64,000 nt of DNA, taken from assembly GCA_963666485.2 (NCBI GenBank), contig CAXXUO010000001.1, positions 1,350,654 to 1,414,653 of the forward strand, given 5' to 3'. Every line of letters begins with the position of its first letter. Position 1 is the stretch's first letter. Origin of the DNA: Syntrophorhabdaceae bacterium. GTDB taxonomy: Bacteria > Desulfobacterota > Syntrophorhabdia > Syntrophorhabdales > Syntrophorhabdaceae. Both the position numbers and the translations under genes were made by a program. The notes beneath the pieces were generated by a model, which had not been told where the DNA came from, ran no database searches, and worked only from the letters and a program-made list of their open reading frames with translations. Positions 36,485-49,820 of this stretch are shown in pieces.

Positions 36485-36630
36485 GTCATCCAACCCCACC
36501 CGCCGCCATCCAACCCCACCCGCCGTCATCCAACCCCACCCGCCGTCATCCAACCCCACCCGCCGTCATCCAACCCCATCCGCCGTCATCCAACCCCATC
36601 CGCCGTCATCCAACCCCATCCGCCGTCATC
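36485..36630 (+). repeat. 20-bp tandem repeat (gtcatccaacccca[c/t]ccgcc) x7, ending in a CGTC REP (36624-36651)
   Basis: Seven contiguous units with no spacers, continuing into cgtcatcccggcgaaagccgggatccag. Confidence 0.9.
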
Positions 36631-36711
36631 CCGGCGAAAGCCGGGATCCAGGGTCTTTGTCTTTTCTTTTAATCCCGGAATATCAATTCATTTTACGAAT
36701 CTAAACCCTAT

Positions 36712-36740
36712 TTGACATTACATACCGTAATCAATAAACT
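36712..36740 (+). promoter_or_regulatory. sigma70 promoter of selC
   Basis: TTGACA-17 nt-TAAACT, ending 8 nt before the tRNA. Confidence 0.75.
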
Positions 36741-36748
36741 ATAGCAAC

Positions 36749-36843
36749 GGAAGTGGAGGGGTCCTGGTGGGCCTCCTGGTCTTCAAAACCAGTGTGCCGG
36801 TGACGAGCTGGCGGGTGGGTTCGATTCCCATGCACTTCCGCCA
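36749..36843 (+). tRNA. selC: tRNA-Sec (anticodon UCA)
   Basis: 95 nt. Acceptor GGAAGTG/CACTTCC, discriminator G plus CCA, anticodon arm CTGGT-CTTCAAA-ACCAG, long variable arm gccggtgacgagctggc, and T-arm GGTTCGATTCC. Confidence 0.95.
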
Positions 36844-36867
36844 TTTCAGTGATATCAAGGGTTTACA

Positions 36868-36950
36868 GCATTCTGACGTTGAAGACCAGAAGGCCCACCA
36901 GAACCCATCCCTGTCCATTTTTGATCAAATTGTGCCTAGATTGTGCCTGA
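36868..36950 (-). repeat. junction unit 1: inverted degenerate selC 5' half plus TTGTGCCT direct repeats
   Basis: Minus strand reads GGACAGGGATGGGTTCTGGTGGGCCTTCTGGTCTTCAACGTCAG. Tail aattgtgcctagattgtgcctga. Confidence 0.8.
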
Positions 36951-37035
36951 ACGGCTAATAATCTCTTCAAAAGGCTCGTCATTGGTAGAATGGTCATATA
37001 AACAAATTCACATAAAATGCCATATTGAATGGCGA

Positions 37036-37230
37036 ATGAAAAAATATGTTTCCCCGATTTTCTTAACATGCATCCTTGTCCTGATCTCACTTTGTCCTGG
37101 CTATCCCCAAACTGCAGAGGAAATGATTAATAAACCTGTCCTAAAGCCTAAAAAGCCAGGCGATCAAGCACATGTATACGATAGACAACACCAGATCGCC
37201 ACAGATTCACTTGACTATCCACTTTTCTAG
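37036..37230 (+). CDS. small secreted hypothetical protein (possibly truncated)
   Basis: MKKYVSPIFLTCILVLISLCPGYPQ signal-like N-terminus. Confidence 0.45.
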   Translation: MKKYVSPIFLTCILVLISLCPGYPQTAEEMINKPVLKPKKPGDQAHVYDRQHQIATDSLDYPLF

Positions 37231-37437
37231 TGATACGAAATAGCAAAACGTGATGTGCGCCTACCCGAAGAGATAGCCGACGGGGGAACGTTTTCCATCG
37301 AAGCTTGTCAAATGTACAATAAGAGGAAAGATGAAGGAGTCCCGATGCAGGGGTGACCGCAACACTTGTTTCCGGCGCAACGAGAGGGAAACAGGTTAAG
37401 ATTTGAGAGACGTATAGACTATTTTGGAGGTGGAGAA

Positions 37438-37842
37438 ATGAAGAGTACCGTATTTGCACTGTGTGGTCTGGTTTTTCTGATTCTGCTGTCGGGCATCAGC
37501 TGGGCTGATTGCGAAAGCGATTGTGACGGCCCTTTTCAAACATGCGTAAAGATGTGCAGGCAAACGACCAAGGAAGACAGCAAAGAGGCGGCGGCCTGCA
37601 TGGATAATTGTTTTCGCGGGGTCAGCGGCTGCCAGAAGAGGTGCAAGCAAAAAAATAGCGGGAATCTGGAAGATACGAAAAATGACCGCCTGCTGATCGC
37701 GGCAAATAATTCGTATACTGGCAAAAGCGTCGTTCAGGGCGCCAATTGCATTGAGCAGGGCCTGACATGTGTGTTGAATGGAACCCCTTGCTGCGCTCCC
37801 TATACATGCAAGGGAAAATTCCCCAACACGACCTGTCAATAA
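37438..37842 (+). CDS. secreted Cys-rich protein with CX3C helical-hairpin domain and C-terminal knottin-like motif
   Basis: RBS ggaggtggaga, signal peptide ending SWA, 8 Cys in CX3C pairs, then C-X6-C-X6-CC-X4-C-X8-C. Confidence 0.75.
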   Translation: MKSTVFALCGLVFLILLSGISWADCESDCDGPFQTCVKMCRQTTKEDSKEAAACMDNCFRGVSGCQKRCKQKNSGNLEDTKNDRLLIAANNSYTGKSVVQGANCIEQGLTCVLNGTPCCAPYTCKGKFPNTTCQ

Positions 37843-37905
37843 ACGGCGGGGGCATTGGTCTATCAAGCGTAAGGAAAATTCTGGCCTGAACCTGGAGGAT
37901 TGCAC

Positions 37906-38745
37906 ATGCACATGACACGATTGATCGGTATTGTCGCGCTGATCTGCCTCGCGACGACGCTTGGACTGGCCTGGGCCCAGACCGTCCCGGAAAATGCGCG
38001 CCGCTATATGGACCGGGGCCAGGCGGCGGTGGAGATGGCGAAGACGAATGTCGACCTCGAGGACGCGCTAAAGGAATTTCAGAAGGCAGCACAGTCTGCG
38101 CCTTCCTGGGCCGAGCCGTACTATCACATGGGAGTGGTGCAGAATAGACTGGGCCGGCTGGACGATGCGTTGACGAGCCTCAAGCGCTGCCTGCAGGTGG
38201 CCCCCGGGGGCAAAAATGCACAGGCCGCACAGCAGCTCATCAATAAGATCGAATATGTAAAGGAGAAGGAAACAGGGATCAGGAGGGTCTACGAATTGAT
38301 GGCGGAGACGACCAATCGTGTTCAATGGGTCAAGATCAGCCAGAAGGGCGCCGATGGCCCGGACTGGGAGATCGAGCACAATGAGGATTTTGACGGGTAC
38401 AAGCCCCCCGAGAATCGCAAGCAGCCGGTCTTCATAATGAAGGATGGGGCACTGTATAAGAACGGCTATTCCGTTGAGCCTATGAATTACTACATAGCCC
38501 CTGATCCCACTTACGGGAAGCTCCCGGTAAAGGTCGACGGGAGGTTTTTTGAATATACCTATCCGGTTGCCTTGGTATACGCGCTCCAGCGCGGGGAGTA
38601 TAGTTACGGGAAAGGCGGGGAAATGTCGATCAAAGGCGAAATAATCTCCTTCGACCCGCCCCGCGTGAAGAGGGTCCAGAGATTGAAGCTTCCCGAAGGA
38701 AAGACGTCCGTAACCGAGTATGTCTACGAATTGCGAAAAAGATAG
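37906..38745 (+). CDS. secreted TPR-repeat protein
   Basis: Signal peptide ending AWA, with ALKEFQKAAQSAPSWAEPYYHMGVV and ALTSLKRCLQVAP TPR motifs. Confidence 0.78.
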   Translation: MHMTRLIGIVALICLATTLGLAWAQTVPENARRYMDRGQAAVEMAKTNVDLEDALKEFQKAAQSAPSWAEPYYHMGVVQNRLGRLDDALTSLKRCLQVAPGGKNAQAAQQLINKIEYVKEKETGIRRVYELMAETTNRVQWVKISQKGADGPDWEIEHNEDFDGYKPPENRKQPVFIMKDGALYKNGYSVEPMNYYIAPDPTYGKLPVKVDGRFFEYTYPVALVYALQRGEYSYGKGGEMSIKGEIISFDPPRVKRVQRLKLPEGKTSVTEYVYELRKR

Positions 38746-38774
38746 TCGTATAAATGGTGGGAACGCGGTTTGCC

Positions 38775-39614
38775 TTAATCACGATTGCGTCTAAGTTCGT
38801 ACAACACGACCCAGGTTATAAATATTCTGACAGGAAGTGCAATTCGGACGGGAAGATCGACCAGGCAGCCCAGGCTGAAGTCTGATCCCTCGCCCGGGAT
38901 CATCCCTATCGTCTCGTCGTTTTGCTGTATAATGTACGTGTCAGTGAAGAGGTGACAGAAGGGGGCGGATGTAAGATAATATTCGCCGTCATTACATTTG
39001 ACCGTATACGAACTGGACACCAGGCTTTCTTTCTCGGCTCTTGCCAGCTCGATGCCATCTTTTTCGAGAAGAAAAGGTTTGAGACCGATCATTCCGTCTT
39101 TACCCCGGATATCATACCGATTTCCATCCAGGTCAAAATTGCAGGCACGATGCCACCATCCGCCTATCCGGGCGATCTCCCGCTCTTCATTGAAGACAGT
39201 GCACTCACCTACGGACCAGCCGGAGTCGACTCTGAGCGCAGGATAACCGTTTGTCCTTTCCGCCGGGCAACCGGCCATGTTTTTTCCTTCGGATTCTGAT
39301 TTGTGCTTTTTATAATAGAAGTACCCCCTGGACAACTCCTCGCCAATAAATACTGCAGCGACAATAACAAGGGGGATGACTTTGGAATACCAGTTCTCGC
39401 CGAGGATGTCGCCCAACCACCGGCCGGTATTGGCACGATTAACCCAGAGGATGAGCAAGATAAAAACGCACGCGGGGAGGTAGATTTTGACTATGCGTTC
39501 AATTGCGAAGGGTCCCTTTTTTTCTATCCGCCAATAAGGCGTCGCCCGGGGAGTCTCGTCTTTCTTTCTCAGGAGACTCTTGATGTATTCCCAGAAATCA
39601 TTCATATCATTCAT
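38775..39614 (-). CDS. membrane-anchored hypothetical protein (two TM helices plus a scramblase/LURP-like beta domain)
   Basis: Start moved to the ATG at 39614 because the longer ORF runs through the selC repeat. Confidence 0.55.
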   Translation of the reverse strand: MNDMNDFWEYIKSLLRKKDETPRATPYWRIEKKGPFAIERIVKIYLPACVFILLILWVNRANTGRWLGDILGENWYSKVIPLVIVAAVFIGEELSRGYFYYKKHKSESEGKNMAGCPAERTNGYPALRVDSGWSVGECTVFNEEREIARIGGWWHRACNFDLDGNRYDIRGKDGMIGLKPFLLEKDGIELARAEKESLVSSSYTVKCNDGEYYLTSAPFCHLFTDTYIIQQNDETIGMIPGEGSDFSLGCLVDLPVRIALPVRIFITWVVLYELRRNRD

Positions 39615-39689
39615 ACTCGGGCCCCGGATGCTCCCGCAGAATATCATTAAAAAGGCGAACCTTGCAACGGCTACAGGGCATCGATCAGA

Positions 39690-39843
39690 GCCGGTGACGA
39701 GCTGGCGGGTGGGTTCGATTCCCATGCACTTCCGCCATTTCTTTTTTGCCAACGGTCCGCAACATCCTGATATTGAAGGCCAGAAGTTCCACCAGGACCC
39801 TTCCTGTCCATTTTTGATCGAATTGTGCCTGGATTGTACCTGA
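39690..39843 (+). repeat. junction unit 2: 48-bp exact selC 3' end, inverted 5' half and TTGTGCCT boxes
   Basis: 39690-39737 is identical to 36796-36843. 39763-39809 is an inverted 5' half. Tail aattgtgcctggattgtacctga. Confidence 0.9.
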
Positions 39844-39926
39844 GGTGAAAAAGGAATTGACCCGATTTTCTCCAACGCCTATGATTGTTGTACCAGAAGC
39901 AAACAAATCATTAAGGAGGTAAGCAG

Positions 39927-40169
39927 GTGAAAAGGATTCTGGTGAGTTTTGTGGTGGCAGTTTTCGTGGCAGCCGCACTCATTCTGTCAGGTGGAAGTGC
40001 TCTTTATGCTAAAAGCAAAGAAGCTGCCTGTTATGGAGACTGCTTCAAAGCGATGAAGAATTGCATGGGGAAGGCCGGTCAGTCGAAGGATAAGCAACAA
40101 GAATGCAGTACAAAAGAGGATAACTGTAAGCGCCGTTGCGATCAGACTGGAGGCGCGGCAAGCAAGTAG
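39927..40169 (+). CDS. small secreted Cys-rich protein (80 aa)
   Basis: RBS aaggaggt, signal peptide, and CX3CX6C...CX6CX3C. Confidence 0.72.
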   Translation: MKRILVSFVVAVFVAAALILSGGSALYAKSKEAACYGDCFKAMKNCMGKAGQSKDKQQECSTKEDNCKRRCDQTGGAASK

Positions 40170-40696
40170 AAACTGCATTCGTCAAAAACAGCGCTTACAA
40201 GTACGGGCGCACGGATTGTGCCTGGATTGTGCCTGAGTCTCTGCACGGGGCTAAACCCATTTGTTTTTGTCGTACAATACTTGGCGGGGCGGCGCTTCCT
40301 GAAAAAACGTATCGACCAAGAAAGCGTCTGCGTTTGACAAAGGGCTTGTCCAATCCACATTGATCCAGATTGATGAGGCGATTGAAAAGATTTGGTCTCG
40401 CACCAGCGACATCGTATCGAATAAAATAGCGCAACTATCATCGTGATCGTCATCGGTATTTCCGGGGACCTGCGGATGGCAGGGGAATTCGACGGAGAGT
40501 ATCAAAGAATGAATATGGAGAGATCTTAAGAATGTTCGAAGTATTGAAGTTGACAAGGTTATCCGTGGACAGGTATCATTACAACAATTCTTATTTATTT
40601 TTCGCAAATTATCGTAATTATCGGTAAAGAAACGGCTGCTTCTGGTTGACTACACGTCAGGCAGCGATTGTCGTTCAGGAAACCCGAAGGCGGATC

Positions 40697-41179
40697 ATGA
40701 ATACCGGAAGCCAAATGGATATTGTCCACGCGATACAATTGGCCTTGGCACCGGCCTTCCTCCTCGCAGGAATCGCCGGCCTTCTCGGCCTGATGGTAGG
40801 CCGCCTGGGACGCATTGCTGACCGCCACCGCCGGCTCGCTGAATCTCCGGATATCGCAAATATGGCCGCGGAGTGGATAGAGCGTGAAATTCACGGATTG
40901 GCGCGCCGTGGGTATTGTGTAAATGCGGCGATTATTTCATTCACCGTATCGGCGTTGCTGGTATGCGTGGTTATTGCCATGTTGTTCCTGGAGGTGTTGG
41001 TGGACCTGCCTCTCAAATGGCTGGTAGGCATCATATTTTTTTCGGCTATGATGGCGCTGATCACCGGGCTGGTCTTCTTTCTGCGGGAGGTCCAGATGGT
41101 TAGTAGAATAGCACTCCGGGACTTTAGGTCATCGGGCGCGAAAGAGGGACAGCAGGAACGTTCGTTAAAAAGTAAATAA
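40697..41179 (+). CDS. DUF2721 family membrane protein
   Basis: IQLALAPAFLLAGIAGLL...RLGRIADR.R and FLREV motifs. Confidence 0.8.
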   Translation: MNTGSQMDIVHAIQLALAPAFLLAGIAGLLGLMVGRLGRIADRHRRLAESPDIANMAAEWIEREIHGLARRGYCVNAAIISFTVSALLVCVVIAMLFLEVLVDLPLKWLVGIIFFSAMMALITGLVFFLREVQMVSRIALRDFRSSGAKEGQQERSLKSK

Positions 41180-41245
41180 CTCAATTCCGAGTTTCCTTCC
41201 AAGCTATTGCCTTTGCCGCAACTTTTCCATCGTCACGTCGACATC

Positions 41246-41376
41246 GTTCGATTCCCATGCACTTCCGCCATTTATTTATCGCCAACGGTCTACGGCATCC
41301 TGATATTGCAGACCAGGAGGCCCACCAGGACCCCTCCTTGTACAGTTTGATCAAATTGTACAAGGATTGTGCATAG
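41246..41376 (+). repeat. junction unit 3: 25-bp selC 3' end, inverted 5' half (28-bp exact match) and degenerate boxes
   Basis: 41246-41270 matches the T-arm/acceptor end. 41310-41337 is the exact reverse complement of 36755-36782. Confidence 0.88.
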
Positions 41377-41664
41377 CGAAATCCCTGTTACGCGGTCGAC
41401 CCGACCGGGCCCTTCGGAGGCGTGGTCGGAACCTCGAGTAGCCTGAAGTCGCTATTGCCGAATCTCAGTCGATACGTAGCAGCACTTGCCTTGGTCGCTA
41501 TCTTCTGGACGAATTCCAGCCCCAAAATATCTCGATAAAATGTGAGGCTTGCCGAAAAAGCCGATCATCGCAAGCCCCACCAGAACCCCTTCACTGTCCA
41601 TTCCTAATTCAATTGTTAATTTTTGAAGAACGTCCCCGGATGCTCCACTGGGGGTAGCGTGATG

Positions 41665-41817: not shown

Positions 41818-41951
41818 TGTCACCTCCGTAGATTAATTATCTCAAATATATCATTCACTATGTATCGTTCATTATTGTCATTTTGCATAGACAAAAGTGG
41901 ATAATGAGCTGTGGCGATATTTCCCCCAAAGGATATCAATAGACAACCCTG

Positions 41952-42011
41952 CAAAACCAGTGTGCCGGTGACGAGCTGGCGGGTGGGTTCGATTCCCATG
42001 CACTTCCGCCA
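41952..42011 (+). repeat. junction unit 4: 60-bp exact selC 3' half starting in the anticodon loop
   Basis: Identical to 36784-36843. Confidence 0.92.
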
Positions 42012-42265
42012 TTTCTTTGTGGGAGAGGGTTTGCACCGGATGGTTGTGTATCAGGTTTAACCGACCAGATGTTCTAATCCAATCAATTTTCGACCATATT
42101 TAGTGTTTTGGGGCTAAATTGGCGCTATCAAGTTTCCCAAAGCGTTGCCAGTAGAGTTATAAAAGATTGCCAAAACATTCCTAATACAATTGACAAGACA
42201 ATAACCTGAGAATAGAATTTCAGAAAATATTATGCATGGCAAGCGACCGTAAAGGAGAGAGATAA

Positions 42266-43476: not shown

Positions 43477-43908
43477 ATGATTACCGCTAAAAAGGTTGTT
43501 ATCGGCATCGCTCTATTTACATTTCTATTCACAGCGGGAGTATGTTTCGCAGATTCGACTATACCCAATCTGGTGGGTGCATGGACTGTAACGACCGAGG
43601 GCGGCGTCCTTCTAAAAGGCGGCTCTTACTCGTGGAAGACGCACCACAGCGGCGAGTTCAGCACCCTGACCGCCGAAGCAGTTGTGACCAAGCAGCAAGG
43701 GAGAGTCTTTCATGGGGTCTTTACGTCATTGAGGGCTACCGAGAAGTTCATCGGCGTCATCGGTCTTGACAATAAGAGCTTTTATTATGCCGATGAAGAT
43801 GGGTTCGTGGATGGCAAGATAATAGGTAAAAACAGAATAGAAGTTGTTTACCGTCATGTATCCACGTCAGATACCGTAGTAGGAGTGGGTACGTGGATAC
43901 GGAAGTAG
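43477..43908 (+). CDS. secreted beta-rich hypothetical protein (paralog of 46393-46827)
   Basis: Signal peptide, IPNLVGAW, VTKQQGRVFHGVF and YYADEDG. Confidence 0.75.
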   Translation: MITAKKVVIGIALFTFLFTAGVCFADSTIPNLVGAWTVTTEGGVLLKGGSYSWKTHHSGEFSTLTAEAVVTKQQGRVFHGVFTSLRATEKFIGVIGLDNKSFYYADEDGFVDGKIIGKNRIEVVYRHVSTSDTVVGVGTWIRK

Positions 43909-44113: not shown

Positions 44114-44404
44114 ATGAAAAAAACATTCGTCGCATTGTTCGCAGCGCTCATTGCCCTTACGTTTATCTGTCCTGCGCTGTCCGCTGATAATCCGGTTGAT
44201 AAATCTAAACAGGCACCCGCCAAGATTGATAAACCGAAGACAGATGTTAATAAGGAAAAAGCCCAATCGAAGGAAGTTAAAGCTACGACCGGGAACCCTG
44301 CATCCAAGAAGACAGATAAGGCATTAGGGTCCGGCGGGGGGATCGTTCCGCCGGGGCCAATACCACCGGGACCTGTAGGTAAGAGCACAAATAGCGGGAA
44401 GTAG
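44114..44404 (+). CDS. small secreted Lys/Pro-rich protein
   Basis: RBS gaggagg, signal peptide, low-complexity mature region. Confidence 0.6.
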   Translation: MKKTFVALFAALIALTFICPALSADNPVDKSKQAPAKIDKPKTDVNKEKAQSKEVKATTGNPASKKTDKALGSGGGIVPPGPIPPGPVGKSTNSGK

Positions 44405-45790: not shown

Positions 45791-46029
45791 CTTATTGGTC
45801 CTCTAATACATAGACAGTATCATGTATCCAGCAATAGGTACGACAAGGGTTCAGTAACTAATTACCACTAAAACAGTCATGTTTCAAGACGAAGAGGTTA
45901 CGAATCCGAAAAGACGGATAAGGTATTAGGGGTCGGCGGGGGGATGGTATCGCTACCGCCACCACCTATCCGCGGGGGTGGCGGTAAGAACACAAATACT
46001 GTGAAGTAACCCTCAATTGGTGACTGGAG

Positions 46030-46392: not shown

Positions 46393-46827
46393 TTATTTCT
46401 TTCTGGACCACGTTCCCACGGATAAAACGGAATCAACCGGGGTTGCGTGCCTGTAAATACCCTGGATCGTGTCGTTGTCAAGGATCTTCGCATCCATGTA
46501 GCCGTCCTGGTCGACCAGGGATATACTCTTGTTGTCAAAACCGATCGCGGCGACGAAGTTCTCGGTCATTTTTGGCGAGGTGAAAGTTCCCCACAAGAGC
46601 CTGCCATCCTGCTTTGTGATCACTACTTCGCCGCCTGACGCATTGACCTGCTGCGCGTAGTGGGTGTATTTGCCCGGGGCATCGCCTTTTAACATAAGGA
46701 CGGCCTGAGATTTTACCGTCCACGTTCCCACCAAATTGGGAATGGCAGAGTCGGCATAGCAAATGCCCGCCGTGAAGAAGAACGTCAACAGGATGATAGC
46801 TGCAACAGATTTTCTTGCCGTGGTCAT
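46393..46827 (-). CDS. secreted beta-rich hypothetical protein (paralog of 43477-43908)
   Basis: RBS aaggaggag. MTTARKSV...GICYADSAIPNLVGTW, ITKQDGR and VDQDG. Confidence 0.75.
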   Translation of the reverse strand: MTTARKSVAAIILLTFFFTAGICYADSAIPNLVGTWTVKSQAVLMLKGDAPGKYTHYAQQVNASGGEVVITKQDGRLLWGTFTSPKMTENFVAAIGFDNKSISLVDQDGYMDAKILDNDTIQGIYRHATPVDSVLSVGTWSRKK

Positions 46828-46974
46828 TGTCTCCTCCTTGAGAGATGAATCGATCCCGGAACGGGTAGCACGTTGCGCTGTTTTCGGCAAGGGACCGGGA
46901 AAGCCCTTCACCCTTTTATCCTTATCATTAAAAGGTGAACCTTGCAACAGGTATGAGACGTCAATCGATTTGCC

Positions 46975-46999
46975 TCTTCAAAACCGGTGTGCCGGTAAC
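46975..46999 (+). repeat. junction unit 5: degenerate selC anticodon/variable-arm fragment
   Basis: tcttcaaaaccggtgtgccggtaac matches 36780-36804 at 23 of 25 positions. Confidence 0.7.
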
Positions 47000-47284
47000 A
47001 TTTTGATACATATAGGAAGGCACAATTGAAGAATCACTGTATCCTTTTCCCTGCATGAAATGGAGTATTTTTCCTGCAACCTCCTTATCCTGTGTATTTT
47101 TCACGGAAATGTACGCGGGCTTACTTTCTCAATATTATTGAATATTGGGCTTGTACAGCGTTTTCCGCCCGTGGATCGGTAAACGGCACGATATGTGCTA
47201 ATCGTTTTATTGCCTAAAATAACTGCGAGCAGTACGACAGCCTGCACTCACCCGGCGAAAAATAACGCGTACTTCGAGAAGGAT

Positions 47285-48767: not shown

Positions 48768-49820
48768 CTAATTCTTTTTATAACAGCCGTAGAATATTCC
48801 GTTCTCTATCTTTGGCTCTACGTTGCTTCCTCCACCCGAACCCCATGCCGTGCAGCCAGCCTGGAATTCATATTTGTTTGCGCCGCCGCACCGGGGGGAT
48901 TGTGATCCGTTCGATGTCGCACAGCAGAAATAACCTTTTGCATCGCACCGCATATATGATCCCATAACACCGGCACAGCTTGGCTGTCCCTGATATGTAT
49001 AACCCGGGAAATTCTTAGGCCCCGGGCAACCGGTCGACTGCTGCTGCGGTGGGGCTCCCGGCTGGGCGCAGGTCCCATTGCTGCAGTACTTCGATGTGCA
49101 TTCCGACGAGGCATGGCAGGGCCTCCCGATCGCCTGGTTGCCTGCCGAGCATGTTCCGCGGAGCCCGCCCGCGACCTGGCAATAACCACTGCTGCACTGC
49201 TGGTGCGTCGTGCAGAAATCGTTCGGCCTACCGGTCCCGTCCTGGGCGACGCATCCCGCCCCCTGCCGGTTGTCGCAGCGCTGGGAGACACACTCATTGT
49301 GTGATGAGCATGCGGTTCCCAGTGGTTTGCTGCTCGCAGCCGAGCATCTGCCAGCGATTTTGCCGGCAGCGACCGAGCACATCTGGCTGCGGCACTGTTG
49401 GTGCGTCGAACAAAAATCGTTCGCGTTACCAGTGCCGTCCTGCGGAACGCAGCCTGAACCCGGCCGGTTGTCACAACGCCGGGAGACACACTCGTTATGG
49501 GACGAGCAGGCGGCTCCGAGCGGTTTACTGCTCCCGCCGCACGTGCCTGTGATCTTGCCCGGGGTGATGCTGCACAACTGGCTGCTGCATTGCTGATGGG
49601 TCGTGCAGAATTCATTCGGCTTACCGGTTCCGTCCTGCGGAACGCAGCCTGCCTGTGCCCGGTTGTCGCAGCGCCCGGAAGTACACTCGTAATGCCCGGC
49701 ACATTTCGCACCCAACGGCTTCCCGGCAAATGACGGCGTTGCACACAGCATGATGCCGGCCAGCAACAAAAGAGACAGTATGAACGCTTTGCGATAATAA
49801 CGCTTCTTTGTAACTGCCAT
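48768..49820 (-). CDS. secreted Cys-rich repeat protein
   Basis: Signal peptide. Three ~66-aa repeats KPLG..C..H.EC.S.RCDNR...GCV.QDGTG..N.FC.THQQC.S..C, then a Cys-rich C-terminal domain. Confidence 0.8.
   Translation of the reverse strand: MAVTKKRYYRKAFILSLLLLAGIMLCATPSFAGKPLGAKCAGHYECTSGRCDNRAQAGCVPQDGTGKPNEFCTTHQQCSSQLCSITPGKITGTCGGSSKPLGAACSSHNECVSRRCDNRPGSGCVPQDGTGNANDFCSTHQQCRSQMCSVAAGKIAGRCSAASSKPLGTACSSHNECVSQRCDNRQGAGCVAQDGTGRPNDFCTTHQQCSSGYCQVAGGLRGTCSAGNQAIGRPCHASSECTSKYCSNGTCAQPGAPPQQQSTGCPGPKNFPGYTYQGQPSCAGVMGSYMRCDAKGYFCCATSNGSQSPRCGGANKYEFQAGCTAWGSGGGSNVEPKIENGIFYGCYKKN

What the first reader, a model, noticed from the sequence alone, without database searches (positions are those of the whole stretch)
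36868..41617. Each junction carries an INVERTED copy of the selC 5' half about 25 nt after the CCA end
Seen: minus-strand copies of the D-arm and anticodon arm at 36868-36916, 39763-39809 and 41295-41337 (28 bp exactly complementary to 36755-36782), plus a remnant at 41575-41617. The anticodon-like stem can still pair through G-U. Ordinary att duplications give only direct 3' repeats. Inference, three options: (a) a second recombinase core, allowing inversion of the tRNA 3' half as a selenocysteine on/off switch; (b) a trailer that pairs with the 5' half in pre-tRNA and controls maturation; (c) a folded ssDNA recombination substrate analogous to integron attC.
Basis: partly seen in the sequence, partly recalled or inferred. 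Interest (0 to 1): 0.8.

Follow-up and report, generated by a model that had tools for sequence, protein, structure and literature searches.

The report
Inverted tRNA half in attachment sites
One lineage of mobile DNA that inserts into the selenocysteine tRNA gene of anaerobic bacteria carries a reversed copy of the first half of that host gene, ending at the predicted cut site and matching each host's own sequence; most likely it is an extra recombination half-site, not an on/off switch.

Summary
The inverted copies are real, at three of five selC junctions plus one remnant, not at "each". The region is a tandem array of four integrase-less islands at selC. Each copy lies between an IHF-like site and a pair of TTGTGC arm-like repeats. 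It covers tRNA bases 1-37 and stops inside the anticodon loop, the predicted 7-bp strand-exchange region. It is not local: 28 of 86 selC junctions collected from Syntrophorhabdales-type genomes and metagenomes carry it. The integrases found behind copies form one clade that has moved away from attL. The copy follows its own host's tRNA (17 of 19 at each of two diagnostic sites), decays together with the arm repeats, and almost never matches base 38 (2 of 26). One window unit has the same rare loop mutation in its direct and inverted sites. No inverted state was found (0 of 96 genomes; no joint in assembled contigs). Best reading (0.43): a second, deliberately imperfect integrase half-site refreshed from the host gene by abortive strand exchange. 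A bottom-strand hairpin and a neutral relic remain open; the Sec switch and pre-tRNA control are unlikely. Function is inferred, not shown.

The parts
36712..36740 (+). sigma-70-like promoter of selC (TTGACA-17-TAAACT)
   Evidence: consensus scan; function not shown
36749..36843 (+). intact selC (tRNA-Sec), left junction J1
   Evidence: ARAGORN; Rfam RF01852 73.7 bits
36781..36787 (+). anticodon loop CTTCAAA = predicted 7-bp overlap O
   Evidence: full-length 3' duplicates in relatives begin at this base; loop-as-overlap is established for tyrosine integrases (PMC8371274 passages)
36853..36865 (+). IHF-like site (WATCAANNNNTTR, consensus recalled)
   Evidence: found in 11 of 28 copy trailers vs 1.4 in shuffles
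36878..36916 (-). inverted copy 1: O' (36878-36884, CTTCAAC) plus host-arm copy
36930..36948 (+). arm-type-like direct repeats TTGTGCC x2, 10-bp period
   Evidence: same type at 27 of 28 copy junctions; binding inferred
36844..39737 (.). unit 1, no integrase; cargo: small secreted-type ORFs, TPR protein 37900-38745, ORF 38775-39587 (-)
39690..39737 (+). selC 3' duplicate (J2), begins in the variable arm
39772..39809 (-). inverted copy 2 (O' 39772-39778, CTTCAAT), 4 differences in bases 10-37
39823..39841 (+). arm-like repeats of unit 2
40216..40236 (+). lone arm-like repeat pair without copy or tRNA fragment
39738..41270 (.). unit 2, no integrase; cargo 39927-40169 and DUF2721 gene 40697-41179
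41246..41270 (+). selC 3' duplicate (J3), T arm to CCA only
41305..41343 (-). inverted copy 3 (O' 41305-41311, CTGCAAT); 28 bp perfect complement
41356..41372 (+). degenerate arm-like repeats of unit 3
41572..41616 (-). orphan remnant: D-arm and acceptor part of a copy plus half an arm, no tRNA 3' end
41949..42011 (+). selC 3' duplicate (J4) from the anticodon loop, with loop CTGCAAA, the same T34G change as copy 3; no inverted copy follows
42108..42127 (+). different arm-like repeat (TTGGGGCTA / TTGGCGCTA) of unit 4
   Evidence: same type in L012 and L045
42012..46999 (.). unit 4, no integrase, 45.9% GC against 54% in the flanks; pentapeptide, ZIP-like and small secreted-type genes
46975..47025 (+). 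right end J5: anticodon loop plus 17 nt of selC, then a minus-strand IHF-like site and one minus-strand TTGTGCC

Best explanation
The window holds a tandem array of four integrase-less islands of a lambda-type tyrosine-integrase system that cuts selC at the anticodon loop. The inverted copy is part of the element's left attachment arm in one integrase clade. It is a second, inverted half-site (host-side arm plus 6 of the 7 overlap bases) placed about 44 bp from the arm repeats. Shown: anatomy, distribution, host tracking, sharp end at base 37, decay in step with the arms. Inferred: integrase binds and nicks at this O' site; while the element sits next to the intact gene, a first strand exchange between O and O' forms a Holliday junction that can migrate only outwards through the homologous arm, copying host sequence into the element; the mismatch at base 38 blocks the second exchange, so selC is not inverted. 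The site would serve as an accessory integrase-binding or cleavage site for assembling the recombination complex, possible only once int moved away and stopped encoding its tail there.
For: Copy ends at the base where the overlap ends: 21-26 of 26 copies match at each of positions 10-37, 2 of 26 at position 38, although the tRNA 3' half is always in cis and could template further. Tracks own host at base 31 (17 of 19, no cross-match) and D-stem type (17 of 19); own host type best or tied in 15 of 19, including a host-specific variant in L223. Window unit 3 has T34G in both its direct and inverted loop, an allele seen in 1 of 96 genomes. Copy and arm decay correlate (Spearman 0.55, n=29, rows not independent); L425, with arms lost, has a decayed copy even beside an intact gene. 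O'-to-arm distance 43-45 nt in 26 of 27. 4 of 14 orphan trailers break exactly at the edge of O' and 1 inside it. Integrases behind copies form one clade, SH-aLRT 98, quick tree; 0 of 28 copy junctions have int within 150 nt, against 14 of 58 without copy.
Against: No binding, cleavage or conversion was observed. Core sites need about 7-10 bp, so a binding role alone does not explain 28 conserved bp. The 3' flank of O' is poorly kept. Five junctions with the same arm type have no copy, so it is dispensable or ancestrally absent. Three of the four exact orphan breaks share a flank and may be one event. True-core-to-arm spacing is also roughly in helical phase (about 85 or 94 nt, 4 of 27 out of phase), so the fixed O'-arm distance is not decisive. 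The shared T34G is one case. Only 3 integrases are directly linked to a copy. C>T bias points towards a bottom-strand fold.
Confidence: 0.43

Rival explanations
1. Bottom-strand hairpin. RNA or single-stranded DNA read from the element towards selC pairs the copy with the antisense of the tRNA 5' half, only in the integrated state; it would trap or mark antisense read-through (RNase III, sib-like retroregulation, recalled) or give a folded excision substrate.
For: Left-junction fold is stronger on the bottom strand (RNA z -9.0 vs -5.6; DNA -6.5 vs -5.3). Against own host, C>T 16 vs G>A 3 in 19 copies, i.e. changes that keep G-U/G-T pairs on the bottom strand; nominal p 0.035 even after allowing for the 1.9-fold bias in control fragments.
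Against: Copies are not independent and the control leans the same way. The integrases that abut attL, whose mRNA would run into selC, have no copy; those with a copy lie 1-4.4 kb away. A hairpin has no reason to stop at base 37. Copy 2 of the window pairs better on the top strand.
Confidence: 0.2
2. Functionless relic. One aberrant strand transfer or template switch made an inverted duplication in a spacer freed when int moved away; it persists by descent within host lineages and occasional template-switch repair.
For: Confined to one clade and order; same-arm elements without it exist; bases 1-9 drift freely (13-22 of 26); many copies are decaying.
Against: Bases 10-37 are far better kept than the adjacent spacer (21-26 of 26 vs mostly 10-21 of 26); repair stops at the overlap edge; a copy beside an intact gene decays once the arms are lost (L425).
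Confidence: 0.2
3. CTX-like or attC-like folded single-stranded attP: O and O' pair in the circular element to form the integration substrate.
For: Geometry resembles CTXphi, two inverted sites about 90 bp apart with an incompatible centre (PMC4246890 passages). A modest O/O' stem forms in the modelled circle of unit 3 (z about -2). One copy-bearing element has a 399-aa ORF with motifs I recall from rolling-circle initiators.
Against: Modelled circles fold at z +0.5 to -2.1 against -4.3 to -9.0 for integrated junctions; the copy has no partner in the circle; IHF-like and arm-like sites imply a double-stranded intasome; that ORF has no Pfam hit.
Confidence: 0.07
4. Pre-tRNA trailer that pairs with the tRNA 5' half and controls maturation.
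For: No terminator-like site on the + strand in 36600-37500; the precursor's lowest-energy fold is the long hairpin (-87.7 kcal/mol, z -4.25). The best copies reach the first bases of the leader.
Against: Commonest changes break top-strand pairs; 22 of 28 copies lie at internal junctions without a 5' half; restricted to one mobile-element clade; it would harm a host that keeps selA.
Confidence: 0.06
5. Productive inversion between O and O' as a selenocysteine on/off switch.
For: Two loops in inverted orientation with a short spacer are present.
Against: 0 of 96 genomes show arms plus copy joined to a tRNA 3' half (exact pattern); no joint in three contig sets, which drop rare forms; base 38 mismatched in 24 of 26 and acceptor strand usually broken; this genome has no integrase of the clade; a candidate inverted end in L044 failed a shuffle test.
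Confidence: 0.04

Closest known systems
tRNA-targeting genomic islands of lambda-type tyrosine integrases, anticodon-loop subsite (Islander class A; tandem arrays)
   Same: 3' tRNA duplicates starting at the anticodon loop, tandem units, PF00589 integrase pointing at attL in relatives, IHF-like and arm-like sites (PMC4383910 passages)
   Different: An inverted 5'-half copy inside the element arm, int displaced by cargo or absent. Islander discards 5' fragments downstream and fragments in opposite orientation, so it would not report this.
CTXphi attP1/attP2 folded single-stranded attP (XerCD)
   Same: Two inverted sites about 90 bp apart, central region incompatible
   Different: Own arm-type integrase, tRNA target, and the long hairpin exists in the integrated junction, not in the circle
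Integron attC / IntI
   Same: Bottom-strand fold; top strand of O' reads GTTGAAG, close to GTTRRRY (consensus recalled); cassette-like arrays in relatives
   Different: No matching R'' box, fold needs the host gene, integrase is a phage-type protein with no integron annotation
Lambda sib retroregulation (recalled)
   Same: A hairpin that exists in only one recombination state, downstream of int
   Different: Here formed with an antisense tRNA half, and int is far from it in the copy-bearing elements
Shufflons and invertase switches (recalled)
   Same: Inverted recombination sites
   Different: No inverted state found; overlap mismatch; 28-38 bp host-gene homology

Membership tests
tRNA-targeted tyrosine-integrase island array | intact tRNA plus displaced 3' fragments in the same orientation | tested here: met
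tRNA-targeted tyrosine-integrase island array | integrase gene on the island | tested here: not met
   none in the window; 5 PF00589 hits elsewhere in the genome; met in relatives L046, L270, L353
tRNA-targeted tyrosine-integrase island array | crossover at the 7-bp anticodon loop | tested here: inconclusive
   identity blocks start at CTTCAAA; cleavage itself not testable
tRNA-targeted tyrosine-integrase island array | arm-type and IHF sites bound by protein | not testable with these tools
   motifs present and enriched
Invertible switch | both orientations occur | tested here: not met
   rare forms would be missed
Invertible switch | identical overlap in both sites | tested here: not met
   base 38 differs in 24 of 26 copies
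CTXphi-type folded attP | stable fold in the free circle that rebuilds both binding arms | tested here: not met
   three modelled circles
CTXphi-type folded attP | host XerCD acting at dif | tested here: not met
   target is selC and elements encode their own integrase
Integron attC | R''/R' boxes within a self-contained hairpin and an IntI | tested here: not met
   fold needs the host gene; integrase families; integron-specific insertion domain not tested by profile
Regulatory pre-tRNA trailer | trailer is transcribed and pairs with the tRNA in vivo | not testable with these tools
   no RNA holder listed

The most novel reading that the evidence does not exclude
This integrase clade recognises its target partly by base pairing. 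A bottom-strand RNA or single-stranded DNA of the element would carry the copy (pairs with the bottom strand of selC left of the loop) and, 34-45 nt further on, the antisense 3' half (pairs with the top strand right of the loop): the two-guide geometry I recall for IS110 bridge RNA, here with a tyrosine recombinase and re-written from each new host. In the same elements a 170-bp repeat that contains the O' sequence GACTTCAAC separates single short genes, which would make this a tRNA-anchored, non-integron cassette platform.
Probability: 0.06. Interest if true: 0.9.

Novelty: new variant of a known kind. Interest (0 to 1): 0.58.

Why it matters
tRNA-targeting islands are expected to carry only the tRNA part they must restore. 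Here one integrase clade also carries the host-side arm, inverted, cut at the overlap and updated from the host gene, a feature that standard island finders filter out by design. If it is a working half-site, it changes the picture of what an attachment arm can be and gives a natural, testable case of integrase-driven gene conversion from a host tRNA gene. If it is a state-dependent hairpin it is a new way to sense integration. It is unlikely to be a selenocysteine switch.

Tried and rejected
Loose pattern searches gave chance matches (154 of 401 genomes; 120 viral stretches) and were dropped. Of 14 genome-collection hits 5 were not copies (3 tandem tRNAs, 2 not complementary to their own tRNA); all 3 viral hits were tandem tRNAs; of 95 metagenome matches 15 were true. 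Expression: no RNA holder listed; the only raw-read run laid gave no reads, so no test. Inverted junction in L044: not significant. Template from a GCA-anticodon selC relative for unit 3: not found in 96 genomes. Perfect full-length copies enriched beside intact genes: 3 of 6 vs 2 of 20, p 0.06, not relied on. Association of the 170-bp repeat with copy junctions: 9 of 20 vs 8 of 33, p 0.14, not relied on; the repeat is absent from this genome. The split selC fragments on contig C3 belong to another integrase type and have no copy. Earlier scan notes: nothing returned. Solved structures: only distant Xer-like matches. The careful integrase tree did not finish; the quick tree is used. Williams 2002 was not held and is not relied on.
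Full report
OBSERVATION. selC lies at 36749-36843 behind a sigma-70-like promoter. Its 3' part is repeated directly at 39690-39737, 41246-41270 and 41949-42011, and the anticodon loop plus 17 nt at 46975-46999. Reverse-complement copies of the 5' half follow the first three 3' ends (36878-36916, 39772-39809, 41305-41343) and a remnant lies at 41572-41599. The 28-bp perfect complement is exact. Scores are about twice the best of 2000 shuffles, and none of the other 47 tRNAs of the genome has such a copy. The fourth and fifth junctions have none, so 'each junction' is wrong. Contigs from three runs of one sample carry each unit as assembled and show no joint; contigs drop rare forms, and the raw-read run did not cover the stretch.

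ANATOMY. Each copy-bearing trailer reads: CCA, an AT-rich stretch with an IHF-like site (consensus recalled; 11 of 28 trailers within one mismatch vs 1.4 in shuffles), the inverted loop O', the inverted host arm, then two TTGTGC repeats at 10-bp period. The four units are lower in GC than the flanks (46-51% vs 54%), carry small cargo genes and no integrase; the five PF00589 genes of the genome are elsewhere and none is close to the selC family described below. Full-length 3' duplicates in relatives start at CTTCAAA, the anticodon loop, which is the classical 7-bp overlap of tRNA-targeting tyrosine integrases (PMC8371274, passages seen). So this is a tandem array of non-autonomous islands.

DISTRIBUTION. 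52 of 61 genomes searched matched the selC region. After fetching more regions and two collection scans, 86 distinct selC 3' junctions with at least 100 nt of trailer were tabulated; 28 carry the copy. This set is enriched by searches aimed at the copy, so 28 of 86 is not a frequency. In the scan of about 185,000 species genomes for a tRNA end followed by an inverted Sec loop, 9 of 14 hits were copies, titled Syntrophorhabdales, Syntrophorhabdaceae, Syntrophorhabdus or uncultured delta proteobacterium; the other 5 were not (the pattern is exact and would miss divergent cases). 27 of 28 copy junctions have the same arm type; 5 further junctions have that arm type without a copy. No copy junction has an integrase within 150 nt, whereas 14 of 58 others do, with the integrase tail running over the arms (only relatives of one integrase query were detected). 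Where an integrase is found behind a copy it lies 1.0, 2.0 or 4.4 kb away, still pointing at attL, and these three plus one from an array with orphan copies form a clade (SH-aLRT 98, quick tree of 42 rows). The clade protein is an ordinary-looking 359-aa PF00589 integrase.

THE COPY FOLLOWS THE HOST. For 19 copies whose host gene is known, base 31 matches the host in 17 (11 T, 6 A, two other letters, no cross-match) and the D-stem type in 17 (one cross-match, L015); the own host type scores best or equal in 15. Across 26 distinct copies compared with the nearest natural tRNA, positions 10-37 match in 21-26, positions 1-9 in 13-22, and position 38, the last overlap base, in 2. Several copies are perfect or nearly so over the whole half in different host types (L033, L210, L302, L223), while close relatives keep an older acceptor-side sequence, which suggests re-templating; the enrichment of such copies beside intact genes is not significant. 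In window unit 3 the direct loop at 41949 and the inverted loop at 41305 both read CTGCAA, an allele found in 1 of 96 genomes. Copy and arm repeats decay together (rho 0.55, n 29, related rows); L425 has an intact gene, lost arms and a decayed copy. Of 14 orphan trailers without a tRNA end, 4 break at the edge of O' and 1 within it; 3 of the 4 share a flank (antisense hits to real genes and one duplicate were dropped).

Inversion: no genome of 96 shows arms and copy joined to a 3' half. Pre-tRNA: the hairpin is the lowest-energy fold of the precursor and no terminator was found, but C>T changes in the copy (16) outnumber G>A (3) and T>C (3), which weakens top-strand and preserves bottom-strand pairing, and 22 of 28 copies have no 5' half in cis. 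The bias is 6.7-fold against 1.9-fold in control fragments, nominal p 0.035 with non-independent rows: inconclusive. Folded substrate: integrated junctions fold at z -4.3 to -9.0, modelled circles at +0.5 to -2.1, the reverse of CTXphi, where the free single strand folds (PMC4246890, passages seen).

MECHANISM. The one boundary that all copies share is the overlap edge, which only the integrase defines. A second half-site that can be bound and nicked, but whose last overlap base differs from the host, would allow a first exchange with O, outward branch migration through the arm homology and conversion, but not a completed inversion (homology rule for tyrosine recombinases recalled). This accounts for the boundary, the gradient, host tracking, the shared loop mutation, the breaks at O' and joint decay with the arms. 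It does not prove a benefit; the fixed 43-45 nt spacing to the arms is suggestive but the true core is also roughly in phase. I give this 0.43, a bottom-strand hairpin 0.20, a neutral relic 0.20, a folded attP 0.07, pre-tRNA control 0.06, a switch 0.04.

SIDE FINDING. Many selC arrays of relatives contain a repeat of about 170 bp between single short genes, up to 12 copies in L353, always on the tRNA strand where a junction is in view; 6 of 96 genomes match its core; it often contains GACTTCAAC, identical to O', and three orphan copies are joined right after it. It is absent from this genome and some clusters (L426, L428) show no selC fragment in the fetched stretch.

LITERATURE. Ten full-text searches listed nothing on an inverted tRNA 5' half in an attachment arm; four returned no paper and most listings were seen as title and abstract start only. 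The library lacks most subscription papers. Seen: PMC4383910 (first third and passages), which rejects opposite-orientation and downstream 5' fragments; PMC8371274 and PMC4246890 (passages); bioRxiv 2023.11.06.565760 (abstract and outline). No supplements were read; att-site tables in supplements could bear on novelty. IHF and attC consensus, sib, shufflons, bridge RNA and template-switch repair are recalled.

VERDICT. Real, conserved and apparently undescribed; a new variant of tRNA-targeted integrase attachment sites with an inferred function. Interest 0.58.

Noticed in passing
L353:2560-18770 (also L251, L290, L355, L215, L425, L426): A repeat of about 170 bp with 10-bp-period TTCGTCT motifs separates single short genes every 500-700 bp in selC arrays of relatives, up to 12 copies, on the tRNA strand; looks like a non-integron cassette array. 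Often contains GACTTCAAC and is preceded by remnants of the integrase 3' end. Absent from the window's genome.
   Followed up: partly
L001:2626-2653 and L002:13601-13638 (contig C3): selC bases 68-95 and 33-70 lie 30 kb apart in permuted order, with an integrase C-terminal remnant facing the first: a selC element broken or inserted at a second site.
   Followed up: partly
L044:8930-9019: A second selC promoter and 5' half cut exactly after the anticodon loop, 2.3 kb before the intact gene, followed by arms, an integrase remnant and a perfect orphan copy.
   Followed up: partly
window 39642-39668 and 46923-46948: The right ends of units 1 and 4 share a 27-nt motif (93% identical) found nowhere else in the genome.
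   Followed up: no
window 36485-36631: 20-bp tandem repeat (about 7 copies) ending in a GC-rich hairpin at 36628-36650 just upstream of the selC promoter; related sequences have high depth in the sample.
   Followed up: no
window 43477-43908 (+) and 46393-46827 (-): Two 48% identical secreted-type genes face each other in unit 4; 44302-44364 and 45904-45966 are also similar. The ZIP-like gene and its neighbour recur in the selC array of L034 (94% and 85%).
   Followed up: no
window 48768-49820 (-): 350-aa cysteine-rich protein with tandem repeats of about 65 aa and a signal-peptide-like start, unusual for an anaerobic bacterium.
   Followed up: no
L270:2920-2960: Arm-like repeats overlap a TTGACA-type promoter upstream of the clade integrase, suggesting autoregulation.
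   Followed up: no
L033:4054-5604 and L046:9361-10182: First cargo genes behind copy-bearing left ends include a reverse-transcriptase-domain protein and a NucS-like nuclease, possibly defence genes.
   Followed up: partly
G000:C3:23114-24217 and C1:229872-230966: Two strong SelA family matches, one in a 795-aa open frame.
   Followed up: no
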